From the NCBI GenBank assembly GCA_964016885.1, contig OZ024750.1, forward strand, positions 35,278,001-35,342,000: a DNA stretch of 64,000 bases. The letters are read 5' to 3'. How positions within the stretch are numbered: position 1 is the stretch's first letter; every line of letters begins with the position of its first letter. This DNA is from Eledone cirrhosa. Taxonomy: Eukaryota. This document shows positions 13,140-37,812 of the stretch, one piece after another. The translations under genes were made by a program, and so were the position numbers. The notes beneath the pieces were generated by a model. That model was not told the origin of the DNA and searched no databases. It worked only from the letters and a program-made list of their open reading frames with translations.

Positions 13140-13693
13140 TAGATAAATCTACCAAGAGTTTACGGTAGTGTCCAATCCGTATGAAGAACTCAATGTAGTC
13201 CGGATATCATGGAAAGAAGAGATGCAATGAAAAATCACTTTCGGTGAAAGATAAACGGAATACAGAGTCAAGATAAAATATTAAAAAAATAATGAATAAA
13301 ACAATGAAACAGTTCCTTATATTAGACAAAAAAAGTTCATTATTTAACGATCGTTTCTAGGATATATATGTGTTAGAATTGGCATGCATATTCAACAGAT
13401 CTATGTACAAAATTATACAAAATTATACAAACTATCAAGATTAAATATACATACCAAACACACATATATGCCGTCTTCAGAATAATGATTATTTCTGAAG
13501 ACGGCATATATGTGTGTTTGGTATGTATATTTAATCTTGATAGTTTGTATAATTTTGTATAATTTTGTACATAGATCTGTTGAATATGCATGCCAATTCT
13601 AACACATATATATCCTAGAAACGATCGTTAAATAATGAACTTTTTTTGTTTAATATAAGGAACTGTTTCATTGTTTTATTCATTATTTTTTTA

Positions 13694-13702
<9 letters not shown>
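13140..13702. mobile_element. Fold-back hammerhead element (210-bp arms 13273-13482 / 13493-13702)
   Basis: Near-perfect palindrome between (TA)n tracts; homologous to 37280-37812. Confidence 0.85.
13488..13636 (+). ncRNA. Hammerhead motif with long stem II (mirrored on the minus strand)
   Basis: attattt-CTGAAGA-cggcatatatgtgt...acacatatatatccta-GAAA-cgatcg-TT-aaataat. Confidence 0.65.
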
Positions 13703-13726
<24 letters not shown>

Positions 13727-13888
13727 TATTAAGGATACTATTTATGGTTATGTATATAATAAAACCTTTTATAGTTATATATATTTTAAACTCTAAATAG
13801 TGAAAGACAGTAATTCATTACTATCTTATTACCAGTAAGATAAATATCTCAATGTAATAACATCAGTTGTTTTACAGAGCAGTTATAT

Positions 13889-14344
13889 AGAAATTACATG
13901 AATCAAAGTTCAGTTTAAATCATTTATTTGCTTACAATTGTCTCCTCCAAACCGAGGTTTGGATTCTTCGGAGCAACTATTTAGTGATTTTTTACATACT
14001 TGACCTCCTTTTCAACACAAGAGACATATAAAAACATATGTATATATTGACCTTCATAAACTGCCAATGTTTTATTTTAATTTTAATTTTAATTTTAACT
14101 TTAATTTTGTCCTTTAATATGACTGTAACCTTTGTATGTAAAATGCCCTGCTTTATTATGATGGATGTCAACCCACTGTGGGTCAATATATACATATGTT
14201 TTTATATGTCTCTTGTGTTGAAAAGGAGGTCAAGTATGTAAAAAATCACTAAATAGTTGCTCCGAAGAATCCAAACCTCGGTTTGGAGGAAACAATTGTA
14301 AGCAAATAAATGATTTAAACTGAACTTTGATTCATGTAATTTCT
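13889..14344. mobile_element. Fold-back hammerhead element (164-bp arms, 128-bp spacer)
   Basis: IR 13889-14052 / 14181-14344. Confidence 0.85.
14257..14305 (+). ncRNA. Minimal hammerhead motif (CCGAAGA core variant)
   Basis: ttgct-CCGAAGA-atccaaacctcggtttggag-GAAA-caattg-TA-agcaa, overlapping AATAAA. Confidence 0.7.
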
Positions 14345-14443
14345 CTCTATATATAGTAAAAAATTGAACGGGAACAAAACAGAGAGGCAGTACGAACAAA
14401 GGTTTATTAGTTTCACGCTCTTGAGAGTGGGGTGGTGGTGGGG

Positions 14444-14478
14444 AACGACGTTTCGGGCATAAGCCCTTCTTCAGGTGA
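14444..14478 (-). ncRNA. Penelope-type minimal hammerhead-like motif
   Basis: CTGAAGA-agggcttatgccc-GAAA-cg-TC with AATAAA downstream; stem I weak; degenerate relative at 21553-21590 (+). Confidence 0.55.
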
Positions 14479-14626
14479 AAAGTGTGTGGGAAGAGAGTTC
14501 CAAGGGTGTGTAGGGGAGTGGTGGAGGGACATATAGAAAAAAGGGGGTGAGAGGAAACGGTACAAATGAAATTAAATATAAAAGCATATTAAAAATAAAA
14601 ATAAACATGAAGTAAAACATATATAT

Positions 14627-14661
<35 letters not shown>

Positions 14662-15239
14662 AGTTTAACGTCCATCTTCCATGCTATATATACTTACATA
14701 TATACGCTTTGATTGTATGTATTTACTTTTTGCAGGTATTTTTGCCTTCACCCTTTGTTGACACACACACACACACATATATATGTGTGTGTTGACACAC
14801 GCACACACACACACATATATATATATATATGCGTGTGTTGACACACGCACACACACATATATATGTGTGTGTGTGTAATTGTTTGGTGATCCGATGTAAA
14901 AGAATGTTACTTTGAGGTAAAAAGTAAGTGGTAAGCTAAGGGGAAGTGTGTGTGGTAAGTTAAGGGGAAGTGTGTGTGGTGGATAATATGTAGTGAAAGG
15001 CTGATAAGAGAAGAAAAGGAGAGCTGTAAAGATGTGGTAGAACAGTGATAAGACAAACAGTAGTAAGAGATATGACTCATCGATTGAGTCTAACATTTTA
15101 ACTGCACTTGGTATGTTTATACATGTGAATGTATGAACCTCTGTAAACAGCCAAAAAAAATGACAAAAGAAAGGGAAAACTAAAACACAATACAATGCAA
15201 TGTTTCAGCAACTTGGATATATGAGTGTATACCAAGATA

Positions 15240-15991
15240 TATGCATAAATATATAATTTATACACAAATATATATACATACACACACATACAAACAGACA
15301 CACAAATATATATATATACATACCAATACACAAATATATATATACATATGAATACTAATATATATACATACACATACACACAAATATATACATACACATA
15401 CACACAAATATATACATACACATACATATACAAATATATACATACCAATACACAAATATATATATACATATGAATACTAATATATATACATACACATACA
15501 CACAAATATATACATACACATACATACAAATATATACATACACATACACACATATACAAATATATACATACCAATACATAAATATATATATATACATATG
15601 AATACTAATATATATACATACACACAAATATATAAATATATATACACACAAATATATATGCATACACATACACACAAATATATAAATATATACATACCAA
15701 CACACAAATATATATATATACATATGAATAATAATATATATACATACACATACACACAAATGCATATACAAATATATACATACCCATGCACAAAAAATAT
15801 ATACACACAACTACACATACACACAAATGCATACACATATATATACAAATATATATGCACACAAATACACAAATATATACATATACATACACACATACAC
15901 ATATATACATACATACACATACACACAAGTATACATCTTCTTCTTCTTCTTCTTCTTCTTCTTCTTCTTCTTCTTCTTCTTCTTCTTCTTC
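15240..15991. repeat. Complex (AT/AC) low-complexity repeat followed by (TTC)n
   Basis: Direct reading. Confidence 0.93.
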
Positions 15992-16314
15992 TCATATAGA
16001 AATATCTTTAGAGAATGAGAGAAAGAGAAAATTGTTTACATAAGGCATTCATCTATGTTATTAAAAATCAACTTCATATTAGAACTGAAAGATATTGGTT
16101 TTGAATAGGATTTTGATATCAGATCAGAGATATCACACACCTGAAATTAGTTATCAGCTAGAGATATGTAAGAAATAGATGCTAGAATCTATATAAATGT
16201 TGATGTTTATTAAATATAAACATGTTGCCTGAGATAACAGTCTTGATGATTAAATAGTGACAGTATAGAGTTTGAGAAGATTCTTTAGTTTGGACAAAAA
16301 TGTGGCAACACTTA

Positions 16315-35934: not shown

Positions 35935-36270
35935 CTGTTTGGTGTGTGTGTGTGTGTGTGTTCTGTTTGGTGTGTGTGTCTGGTGTGTGTGTCTCTCTTT
36001 GGTGTGTGTGTGTGTCTTCTGTTTGGTGTGTGTGTCTGGTGTGTGTGTCTCTCTTTGGTGTGTGTGTGTCTTCTGTTTGGTGTGTGTGTCTGGTGTGTGT
36101 GTCTCTCTTTTGTGTGTGTGTCTTCTGTTTGGTGTGTGTGTCTCTCTTTGGTGTGTGTGTGTGTCTTCTGTTTGGTGTGTGTGTCTCTCTTTGGTGTGTG
36201 TGTGTCTTCTGTTTGGTGTGTGTGTGTCTGGTGTGTGTGTCTCTCTTTGGTGTGTGTCCGTGTCTCAGTC
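35935..36270. repeat. TG-rich compound repeat
   Basis: tttggtgtgtgtgtctc-type units. Confidence 0.9.
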
Positions 36271-36629
36271 TGTGTTTGTTTATATTCTATCTTTGTATTC
36301 TAACTTTAACATTATATATTACTGAAGGGTGGAGGGTTGGCAGTATTTGGTAGAATGTCATACAACATATTTTGTGGCATATACTTATATATGTACTTAA
36401 CTTTAACATTATATATATATATATATATATATATCACTGTAGGAAGGTGGGTAGAGCATTGGACAACATGCTTTGTGGCATATAGTTAAGTCCCTTTACC
36501 TTCTGAGTTCAAATCCCACCAAGGTTAGATTTGCCTTTCATCCTTGTGGAGCCAATAAAATAAAGTACCAGTAACACACTGGGGATGCTTTAACCCTTTA
36601 GCATTCACATTACTCTATATATACTATTG

Positions 36630-36869
36630 TATTTTATTATTTCAAGGGCAACCAAGCCAATCATGGTGCACTTTCATCAGATAAAATACAAAATTTGTTT
36701 TATAAATAGTGACATAACCATCAACCGTCAAGGTTGTTTTCCATGATTATATCACTATTTATAAAACAAATTGTGTATTTTATCTGATGAAAGCACACCA
36801 AGATTGGCTTGGTCGCCCTTGAAATAATAAAATAATTATGGTTTTATAAATATAGTTTCCATTTATTAA

Positions 36870-36875
<6 letters not shown>
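36630..36875. mobile_element. Older fold-back hammerhead element (arms about 36630-36720 / 36743-36834)
   Basis: ttttat-CTGATGA-aagcacaccaag..cttggtcgccctt-GAAA-TA-ataaaa (stem III palindrome lost); arms diverged. Confidence 0.75.
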
Positions 36876-36951
<76 letters not shown>

Positions 36952-37116
36952 AAAATAACAGATTAAAGTTTAGTCTTCAAATTTATTATTATTACTATAT
37001 ATATATATATATACACTTGAAGGCGGCCGACCGGGCTAGAAACTGCTAAATGTGTGGCCGCCTTCTTGTCTCTGCCTTTTCAGCCCCATGCATTATATTC
37101 CTTTGTTAAATTTCGA

Positions 37117-37174
37117 ATACCTGATGATGTCACCGGATTCATACTGAACCCGGTCATTGAAATGTTTAGAGTAT
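37117..37174 (+). ncRNA. Degenerate hammerhead motif
   Basis: atac-CTGATGA-tgtcaccgg..ccggtcatt-GAAA-tgtttaga-gtat-AATAAA; element bounded by (TA)n. Confidence 0.55.
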
Positions 37175-37234
37175 AATAAACCTTTAAGGAATTACACCAG
37201 TCCAGCCTCCTTATATTTTATAATATATATATAT

Positions 37235-37279
<45 letters not shown>

Positions 37280-37301
<22 letters not shown>

Positions 37302-37809
37302 TAAAACTATCAATCAATGGTAGGGTCTAAACCATATGAAGAACTCAATGAAATCCGTATGTAGAAGATGTCGTGAAGCAAAGTTTAAAATGCAAAATTT
37401 TCAACGATATAATTCATTGGATACAGAGTCAAAAATAGAAATATTAAAACAATGAAATTAAACACAAAACGGTTAATTCATAGTAAAACTCATTATTTTA
37501 CGATCGTTTCTGAGGGGTAGTTCCCCATATGTCCATTCAATTATTGATCTATGTAAAATATATTACAAAATATCATAGTAAGAAAAAGTACATACGTCTT
37601 CACTACCCGCCGTCTTCAGAAATAATTATTTCTGAAGACGCCGGCTAGTGAAGACGTATGTACTTTTTCTTACTATGATATTTTGTAATATTTTACATAG
37701 ATCAATAATTGAATGGACATACAGGGAACTACCCACCAGAAACAATCGTAAAATAATGAGTTTTACTATGAATTAACCATTTTGTGTTTAATTTCATTGT
37801 TTTAATATT

Positions 37810-37812
<3 letters not shown>
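37280..37812. mobile_element. Fold-back hammerhead element, zero-spacer palindrome 37437-37812; ribozyme at 37625-37757
   Basis: attattt-CTGAAGA-..gg(g)tagt...actaccc..-GAAA-c(g/a)atcg-TA-aaataat; homolog of 13140-13702. Confidence 0.85.

What the first reader, a model, noticed from the sequence alone, without database searches (positions are those of the whole stretch)
13140..37812. Two diverged homologs both folded back at hammerhead stem I, with a re-invented long stem II
Seen: 13140-13702 and 37280-37812 share termini (cc(g/a)tatgaagaactcaatg..tacagagtcaa). Both palindromes are centred on the same stem I strand (aataatgattatt vs aataattatt). Stem I, CUGAAGA and GAAAcgatcgU(U/A) are conserved, while the ~100-115-nt stem II has different but still complementary base sequences (catatatgtgt/acacatatat vs gggtagt/actaccc). 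Inference: selection acts on RNA structure, and the turn point is programmed rather than random, e.g. through stem I complementarity between the cDNA end and upstream sequence.
Basis: partly seen in the sequence, partly recalled or inferred. Interest (0 to 1): 0.75.

Follow-up and report, generated by a model that had tools for sequence, protein, structure and literature searches.

The report
Penelope palindromes mark the RNA start
These two mirror-image stretches are short stumps of two related, abundant jumping-gene families, and about a thousand such stumps in this genome meet at the same base, likely because that base is where the element's RNA begins and two separately started copies would run out there and be joined.

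Summary
Both loci are two-armed pLTR stumps of two sister Penelope-like retroelement families with Hydra-clade protein motifs (813-aa RT/GIY-YIG ORF found elsewhere in the genome; ORFs 75% identical), inserted in (TA)n. The turn point is strongly non-random: 60 of 121 truncated arms end within -3..+9 of the first A of ATTATTT, 28 exactly on it, and about 1000 loci are centred there against about 145 in a control zone. It is not one moved MITE, since junctions differ per locus. It is not a stem-I snap-back: that product is seen 10 times, 9 in the wrong polarity. Arms often stop at +1 singly. Best reading: +1 is the transcription start (Inr-like TCATT, DPE-like at +28 in family 2, extra G), and two internally primed cDNAs run off it. 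Stem II covaries but is only partly replaced; it buries a likely 5'-UTR splice donor. No RNA data were available. The architecture is published, and the scan noted RNA-end pile-ups before in other genomes. The 100-116-nt stem II and the base-precise hotspot were not found in the papers searched.

The parts
13140..13486 (-). Family 1 tailed pLTR arm: from stem I 5' strand (+1) through hammerhead to the outer RT start site (about +348)
   Evidence: same 3' end in 30 of 30 best relatives
13140..13272 (-). Family 1 one-sided tail, 133 nt, absent from the other arm
13488..13702 (+). Family 1 tail-less pLTR arm, from +1 to the inner fixed end (cleavage site +73)
   Evidence: 16 of 38 family 1 inverted arms end exactly there
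13480..13494 (.). Head-to-head junction of locus 1; one G sits between the two stem I strands (copied cap or templated -1 base, ambiguous here)
13488..13636 (+). Type I hammerhead: stem I 13488-13494, core 13495-13501, 116-nt stem II 13502-13617, GAAA/stem III/GUU 13618-13629, stem I 3' strand 13630-13636; mirror copy on - strand 13339-13486
13521..13526 (+). Likely 5' splice donor GTATGT (+34), paired inside stem II
   Evidence: inference, no RNA data
37298..37626 (-). Family 2 tailed pLTR arm with intact hammerhead (102-nt stem II)
37298..37436 (-). Family 2 one-sided tail, 139 nt
37625..37812 (+). Family 2 tail-less pLTR arm, from +1; carries later point changes in stems II and III
37619..37632 (.). 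Head-to-head junction of locus 2: both arms reach +1 and overlap by a 2-nt AT microhomology
37652..37661 (+). DPE-like AGACG at +28..+32 overlapping the likely donor GTATGT (family 2 only); mirror copy on - strand near 37590-37599
   Evidence: compared with RGACGTGY in PMC2377424
13112..13139 (.). (TA)n target flank of locus 1; a matching (TA)n run follows 13702
37244..37297 (.). (TA)n target flank of locus 2; (CT)n(TA)n follows 37812

Best explanation
Both loci are head-to-head pairs of short pLTR arms of two sister Penelope-like retroelements, and their shared centre is likely the element's transcription start, where two separately primed cDNAs would run off the RNA 5' end and be joined. Shown: a full-length parent (pLTR, 416-503-nt leader, RT/GIY-YIG ORF, long simple-repeat 3' region, pLTR), two fixed outer ends, (TA)n targets, a base-precise pile-up of inner ends at +1, and junctions that differ from locus to locus. 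Inferred: (1) transcription starts at the A of TCATTATTT in the upstream pLTR; (2) the endonuclease nicks both strands of (TA)n and each nick primes cDNA at one of two internal sites in the unspliced leader (about +215 and +348), as shown in vitro for an anole PLE; (3) the cDNAs run to the capped end, or stop earlier, and are joined by microhomology or untemplated bases; (4) priming in the downstream pLTR gives the long read-through arms. The long stem II is kept by selection on RNA structure and likely hides the donor of a 350-435-nt leader intron. Stem I is 7 bp in RNA starting at +1 and 9-14 bp in read-through RNA, so the 5' ribozyme copy is predicted to fold less well than the 3' copy.
For: Parent ORF of 813 aa behind the same pLTR in 3 of 5 long loci; sister ORF 75% identical over 499 aa behind the family 2 pLTR; best fold matches are telomerase RTs. 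60 of 121 truncated arms end in -3..+9, 28 exactly at +1, binomial p 2e-50 against a uniform spread. About 1000 stem-I-centred loci against about 145 in a control zone. In 14 of 50 two-armed loci the tail-less arm reaches over 10 nt further 5' than the tailed arm, which one self-copying cDNA cannot make (one search list, my count); 10 of 15 joints in short-read contigs join 13484-13489 to scattered points of the tailed arm. +1 lies inside stem I, which extends 2-7 bp further upstream and varies in step there, so it is not a helix boundary. G precedes +1 in 17 of 26 G-or-C junctions although the genomic base is C. Family 2 has AGACGTAT at +28..+35, 7 of 8 matches to the Penelope DPE (PMC2377424). 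A start in the pLTR with a 5'-UTR intron is shown for Penelope and Chlamys-3 (PMC8557442). Priming from both nicked strands at two internal sites: PMC11167929.
Against: No RNA evidence for a start, cap, intron or cleavage. The G excess is small (17 against 9, A/T not counted), and cap copying and the Inr and DPE consensuses are partly recalled, not from a call. Family 1 has no DPE at +28. The arms are not independent: both at +1 in 20 of 50 against about 14 expected, about 7 of 17 other loci turn symmetrically at scattered places, and the two arms of a locus are near-identical variants in most of 32 loci, all of which a hairpin route also predicts. An AATAAA at -14..-9 offers another source of a 5' end. 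No spliced genomic copy was found (0 matches). The donor lies in the basal arm of stem II, where pairing is high anyway.
Confidence: 0.68

Rival explanations
1. One cDNA runs to the RNA 5' end, folds back on its own AT-rich end, copies itself into a hairpin, and the endonuclease then trims one arm to give the tail (self-priming, as proposed for Adineta PLEs). The hotspot is still an RNA end, but the second arm is DNA-templated.
For: Arms of one locus are near-identical even when far from all other loci, e.g. L130 0.98 within against 0.87 outside. Symmetric turns occur at scattered places (L071, L075, L121, L153, L170, L176, L178). Many junctions are AT/AATT microhomologies. PMC3846280 reads PLE palindromes as self-priming; PMC8557442 ascribes tails to EN resolution.
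Against: 14 of 50 loci have the tail on the arm that is shorter at its 5' end, and 10 of 15 contig joints are of this kind; a target-primed cDNA cannot add a tail it never copied. Untemplated inserts, template jumps and a captured ORF piece sit at junctions (L064, L066, L068, L086, L177).
Confidence: 0.15
2. +1 is an RNA 5' end made by cleavage/polyadenylation of read-through transcripts at the downstream pLTR; the uncapped downstream piece is protected by the hammerhead fold and serves as template.
For: AATAAA at -14..-9 in read-through copies of both families (raw contexts), a CA at -1/+1, and a GU-rich stretch at +20..+45; 29 arms end at +2..+8.
Against: +1 is only 8 nt behind the hexamer, closer than the usual 10-30 nt (recalled). 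A cut after CA would start at +2, but the peak is at +1 (28 arms). Extra G and the DPE spacing in family 2 fit a start site.
Confidence: 0.1
3. One reading: the cDNA end pairs with its own copy of the other stem I strand, which programs the turn.
For: 10 loci join +1 directly to the strand after the cleavage site through the stem I complementarity; one (L231) has the polarity a snap-back needs.
Against: This geometry gives a one-hammerhead product, unlike both window loci. 10 against about 1000 loci; 9 of 10 have the wrong polarity. Arms stop at +1 when the partner arm stops elsewhere (13 of 50).
Confidence: 0.04
4. One ancestral palindromic MITE moved by a DNA transposase.
For: Long inverted arms and (TA)n flanks.
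Against: Ends are asymmetric, not terminal inverted repeats; junctions differ between loci; arms continue into an RT ORF; the two loci belong to separate families, each with its own parent.
Confidence: 0.01

Closest known systems
Hydra clade of C-terminal EN+ Penelope-like elements (Craig et al. 2021, PMC8557442; sections 10 and 11, passages, supplement part 2 read)
   Same: Single ORF with RT then GIY-YIG; RW(K/R), DKT, CxCX5C, CxxC and CxH motifs; no conserved CCHH; type I hammerhead in the pLTR; (TA)n targets; inverted 5'-truncated copies.
   Different: Unit is 6.45-7.36 kb, not under 3 kb. Stem II with loop is 100-116 nt against at most 24 nt in the 26 Hydra rows of File S2 (found with a length-limited descriptor). 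Tail 133-139 nt against 30-40. No tree with published Hydra sequences was built.
Inverted pLTR plus one-sided tail insertions of EN+ PLEs (Arkhipova et al. 2013, PMC3846280, passages read; Cervera and De la Pena 2014, PMC4209133, parts 1-2 of 4 read)
   Same: Head-to-head pLTRs with palindromic junctions and a tail on one side; paired hammerheads on opposite strands 100-700 bp apart were noted in Schistosoma.
   Different: The passages read give no distribution of junction positions and explain palindromes by self-priming on an antisense template; here junctions pile up at one base and many loci do not fit self-priming.
Poseidon of Anolis (PAc) in vitro (Frangieh et al. 2024, PMC11167929, parts 1-2 of 4 read)
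   Same: Both strands nicked in AT-rich DNA and extended; RT starts internally at two sites that define the tail; product length set by the RNA 5' end; uncut RNA is the main template.
   Different: Other clade; ORF starts inside the hammerhead there and about 420-500 nt downstream here; start sites are adjacent there and about 135 nt apart here.
Penelope of D. virilis and Chlamys-3_cRei promoters (PMC2377424 parts 1-2 of 4; PMC8557442 section 10)
   Same: TATA-less start inside the pLTR, DPE, 5'-UTR intron retained in genomic copies; the Chlamys intron (398 bp) spans the pLTR/body border like the one predicted here.
   Different: In D. virilis the hammerhead begins at the intron's 3' end (PMC4209133); here the predicted start is inside stem I and the predicted donor inside stem II.
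Metazoan non-LTR retrozymes (preprint 10.64898/2026.07.22.740005, part 1 of 5 read)
   Same: Short non-coding, type I hammerhead, PLE pLTR origin.
   Different: These loci are not tandem monomers and are remade from an autonomous parent at each insertion.

Membership tests
EN+ Penelope-like element | Single ORF with telomerase-related RT | tested here: met
   813-aa ORF with YRDD at 346; model pLDDT 85, top Foldseek hits TERT, E 3e-9. Pfam scan itself found nothing.
EN+ Penelope-like element | C-terminal GIY-YIG endonuclease | tested here: met
   NIVY..YIG at 691-709 with invariant Y694, Y707, G709, R718, H722 in 70 sequences; closest homolog hits Pfam GIY-YIG weakly, E 0.012, below cut-off.
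EN+ Penelope-like element | pLTRs, inverted 5'-truncated copy, one-sided tail | tested here: met
   Direct pLTRs 6.45-7.36 kb apart; 50 two-armed loci among 115; tails of 133 and 139 nt.
EN+ Penelope-like element | Target site duplication | tested here: inconclusive
   Both loci sit in (TA)n, so a duplication cannot be read.
Hydra clade | RWK motif and DKT in place of DKG | tested here: met
   RWRA at 37 (R for K) and DKT at 115-117 (definition).
Hydra clade | CxCX5C linker; CxxC and CxH around the conserved E and N | tested here: met
   CNCRNKTNC at 673, CRLCSQE at 771, CNH at 799; no CX2-5CxxC.
Hydra clade | CCHH motif absent | tested here: met
   Family 1 has two Cys 9 apart between the GIY and YIG parts, family 2 has one; neither is invariant in 70 homologs.
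Hydra clade | Insertion into (TA)n | tested here: met
   Both window loci and most fetched tails end in (TA)n.
Hydra clade | Placement in the Hydra branch of the PLE RT tree | not tested
Type I hammerhead ribozyme | CUGANGA, GAAA, NUH and stems I-III with palindromic loop 3 | tested here: met
   196 motifs, 101 distinct, in fetched loci; stem I 92.5% and stem III 97.9% of cells paired in 24 sequences. Rfam hammerhead models gave no hit among 74 matches.
Type I hammerhead ribozyme | G10.1-C11.1 pair next to the core | tested here: not met
   Position is C/A in most and U/A in a few variants, with G-C or G-U one step out. Many published Hydra motifs also carry an extra base on each side.
Type I hammerhead ribozyme | Self-cleavage | not testable with these tools
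   Hint only: 14 of 53 listed control-zone junctions have an arm starting at the cleavage site and none reads on into stem III (my count), but the unbiased sample shows no excess (8 of 121 within 6 nt).
MITE | Terminal inverted repeats and one shared internal sequence across copies | tested here: not met
   Asymmetric ends and locus-specific junctions.
Non-LTR retrozyme | Tandem hammerhead monomers | tested here: not met
   Both loci are head-to-head pairs with one hammerhead per arm.

The most novel reading that the evidence does not exclude
In these Hydra PLEs the hammerhead has been built over the promoter and first intron as a switch. Transcription starts inside stem I, so the 5' copy is half-disabled and only the read-through 3' copy can fold fully. 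The 100-nt stem II masks the splice donor, so an RNA either splices out ribozyme and RT start sites to become mRNA, or folds and stays unspliced as the template. This would explain why PLEs keep their introns, and the genomic palindromes would be a fossil map of RNA 5' ends.
Probability: 0.25. Interest if true: 0.72.

Novelty: new variant of a known kind. Interest (0 to 1): 0.45.

Why it matters
How Penelope-like elements form their inverted ends, and why they keep introns, are stated as open in PMC8557442 and PMC3846280. Here about a thousand young insertions give a base-precise readout: inner ends pile up at one nucleotide, and many loci cannot come from self-priming of one cDNA. This supports two-sided priming in a living animal, names the base at which 5' RACE should find the cap, and offers intact 813-aa ORFs with defined start sites for an in vitro test. 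The palindromes themselves are ordinary debris of a known element class.

Tried and rejected
Rfam: no hammerhead hit, only weak miRNA-type matches to hairpins and simple repeats. Pfam and PDB sequence searches with the ORF were blank; a profile gave one retron RT at E 8e-4. I first read the clade as Nematis from memory and dropped that after testing the Hydra motifs. No RNA holder listed; laid runs were contigs of unknown kind and say nothing on starts, splicing or expression. The drop in contig depth upstream of +1 is confounded by subfamily divergence and was not used. A search for spliced genomic copies found 0. The 1599 arms overcount truncations: 31 of the first 100 rows carry CA before +1 and belong to one subfamily, and the one such locus read (L085) is a SINE insertion. 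(75 loci) covered one subfamily only and was replaced. Loci were chosen with junction-containing queries and were left out of the end counts. The AATAAA filter makes those outputs circular for AATAAA conservation. In alignment A3 the family 2 donor helix is shifted by two columns, so helix 4 counts understate it; pairs with double changes (8 against 6.4, 79 of 500 shuffles) are not significant. Two paper searches for cap-derived G gave nothing usable, so that point is recalled. Assembly artefact rejected: fixed outer ends, varied junctions, and the same kind of joints in short-read contigs.
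Full report
Observation. The two palindromes are in the sequence as described. 13273-13702 is 98.8% and 37437-37812 is 94.7% self-complementary, and the loci are 66.6% identical over 377 columns. Each has one arm with an extra 133 or 139 nt (the tail), and both sit in (TA)n. The centres fall on the 5' strand of stem I of a type I hammerhead; all four arms carry CUGAAGA, a 100-116-nt stem II, GAAA, a 2-bp stem III with GAUC loop and GUU or GUA. One arm of each locus folds better than shuffles, z -5.74 and -2.83. 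Rfam found no hammerhead among 74 weak matches.

What it is. The window lies in a 3.0-Gb animal genome. A 32-mer of the locus 1 tail occurs 7064 times and a 33-mer of the locus 2 tail 139 times. Where the tail continues into unique sequence, an 813-aa ORF follows about 500 nt after stem I, then a long simple-repeat region and a second pLTR 6.45-7.36 kb after the first (3 of 5 long loci). The family 2 pLTR leads into a broken sister ORF, 75% identical over 499 aa. Pfam and PDB sequence searches were blank, but a model from 70 sequences (pLDDT 85) matches telomerase RTs best. The protein has RWR, DKT, YRDD, CxCX5C, a C-terminal GIY-YIG, CxxC and CxH and no conserved CCHH, the marks of the Hydra clade in PMC8557442. 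No tree was built. The two loci are therefore stumps of two sister PLE families, not one MITE.

The turn point. I took 94 of the first 100 listed family 1 tails and the first 30 family 2 tails, chosen without regard to junctions. Two failed orientation and 7 were dropped as second ends or duplicates, leaving 115 loci with 165 arms. Of 121 arms that end between -100 and +200, 60 end within -3..+9 of the first A of ATTATTT (+1) and 28 exactly on it; p is 2e-50 against an even spread. Family 1 gives 51 of its 125 arms in that zone and family 2 gives 9 of 40. Genome-wide, about 1000 family 1 loci are centred there (1002 and 994 by strand) against about 145 for a control pattern of the same gap behind the cleavage site. 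Junction sequences vary: overlaps of AT or AATT, blunt joins, untemplated bases, short template jumps. So the palindromes are remade at each insertion. The hotspot is not obligatory: among 50 two-armed loci both arms stop at +1 in 20, one arm in 13, neither in 17. Outer ends are fixed: 16 of 38 family 1 tail-less arms end exactly 73 nt after the cleavage site.

Pairing of the cDNA end with its own copy of the other stem I strand would join +1 to the sequence after the cleavage site and leave one arm without a hammerhead. That join exists at 10 loci, and in 9 the arm that starts later carries the tail which the earlier arm lacks, so it cannot be a copy of it. The same holds in 14 of the 50 two-armed loci (my count; 7 go the other way), and 10 of 15 joints in short-read contigs link 13484-13489 to scattered points in the tailed arm. 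Two separately primed cDNAs explain this. PMC11167929 (parts 1-2 of 4 read) shows an anole PLE nicking and extending both strands from two internal RNA sites that define the tail. Against a clean twin-priming picture, the arms are correlated (20 observed, about 14 expected), about 7 of the 17 other loci turn symmetrically, and arms of a locus are near-identical variants. Both arms may come from one RNA, and some loci may be true fold-backs, as PMC3846280 proposes (passages).

Why +1. It is not the edge of a helix: in read-through copies stem I extends 2-7 bp further upstream, 9-14 bp in all, with U-A to C-G change at its outer pair in family 2. It looks like a start site. The context TCATT fits an initiator (consensus recalled), ATTGG lies at -57 to -79 in most read-through contexts, and family 2 has AGACGTAT at +28..+35, 7 of 8 matches to the Penelope downstream element RGACGTGY (PMC2377424, parts 1-2 of 4). 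Family 1 lacks this match. Where a G or C precedes +1 at a junction it is G in 17 of 26 although the genome has C; copying of the cap would give this (recalled; two searches found no usable paper), but the excess is modest. The rival source of a 5' end is poly(A) cleavage behind AATAAA at -14..-9, which is closer than usual and would start at +2 or later. No RNA run was listed.

Stem II. Structure is under selection. Strands of the same locus pair at -33.5 and -22.1 kcal/mol, swapped strands at -12.5 and -12.3. In 24 sequences 88.7% of 896 cells pair and 33 show double changes against 13.9 in shuffles; the count of such pairs (8 against 6.4) is not significant, and relatedness inflates the cell counts. 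Only the basal 7-13 bp differ between families; the helix GUAUGU/ACAUAC is shared. Its 5' strand, at +32 to +34, reads as a splice donor and is paired in the predicted fold of all 24 (mean probability 0.97 against 0.64 for stem II overall). An acceptor-like TTTAG|TTGAG is conserved about 35 nt before the ATG in both families. The implied introns of 351-435 nt would remove the ribozyme, both RT start sites and all but 0-1 of 8-10 upstream ATGs. Penelope and Chlamys-3 have a start in the pLTR and such an intron. No spliced genomic copy was found, as expected for PLEs but giving no support. The hammerhead fold lies 3.4-10.4 kcal/mol above the minimum for RNA starting at +1 and 0.8-4.5 for read-through RNA in 5 of 5 loci; the competing fold pairs the CUGA core with (U/C)AGAAA. 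The pair next to the core is C/A, not G-C. Cleavage in vivo is uncertain: 14 of 53 listed control-zone junctions start at the cleavage site (my count), but the unbiased sample has 8 of 121 there, near expectation.

Comparison and novelty. Inverted pLTRs with a one-sided tail, paired opposite hammerheads and (TA)n targeting are published. Published Hydra hammerheads have at most 24 nt of stem II and loop in 26 rows, so 100-116 nt is a departure, though their search limited length. Five paper searches listed no study of junction positions relative to a start site; subscription journals are not covered and the bioRxiv supplement was not seen. Earlier scan notes reached similar readings in other genomes, and one pointed me to the Hydra clade; they are leads only. 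Verdict: a new variant of a known kind. Identity as PLE stumps is near certain; run-off at a transcription start about 0.68; the splice-masking switch about 0.25. Interest 0.45.

Noticed in passing
window 13890-14345: A second, unrelated palindrome 190 nt from locus 1, with asymmetric centre and hammerhead-like ends (CCGAAGA, short stem, GAAACAATTGTA); probably another two-armed PLE insertion.
   Followed up: no
window 25555-25600: Minimal hammerhead-like motif with a 13-nt stem II region.
   Followed up: no
window 28080-28350: Two tandem hammerhead-like units (CTGAGGA, about 63-nt stem II, GAAAC(G/A)ATTGTA); a similar unit flanks L004. Possibly a retrozyme-type repeat.
   Followed up: no
window 46449-47219 and 48382-49152: Perfect 771-nt inverted repeat around a 1162-nt spacer; no match to the Hydra ORF anywhere in the window.
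   Followed up: partly
window 9780-10100; L085, L044, L232, L167: A tRNA-like SINE forms a head-to-head pair in the window and has inserted repeatedly at stem I sequences of both PLE families; in L085 with an 18-bp duplication that starts at +1.
   Followed up: partly
L064, L086, L177: Junctions with repeated template jumps (three copies of +1..+13 in L086) and, in L177, a captured piece of family 1 RT coding sequence between family 2 arms.
   Followed up: no
L082, L085 upstream of the hammerhead: An older tandem copy of the presumed promoter plus the first 12 nt lies about 200 nt upstream in one subfamily.
   Followed up: no
window 16316-17729, 39626-40664, 41906-42337, 50988-55000: Satellite arrays: a 48-nt type in opposite orientations 22 kb apart and a 16-nt type in two blocks.
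   Followed up: no
run X5 on L102:9761 and window 13398-13503: Contigs of a second organism hold this family and show the same palindromic junction at +1 (short overhang, weak).
   Followed up: partly
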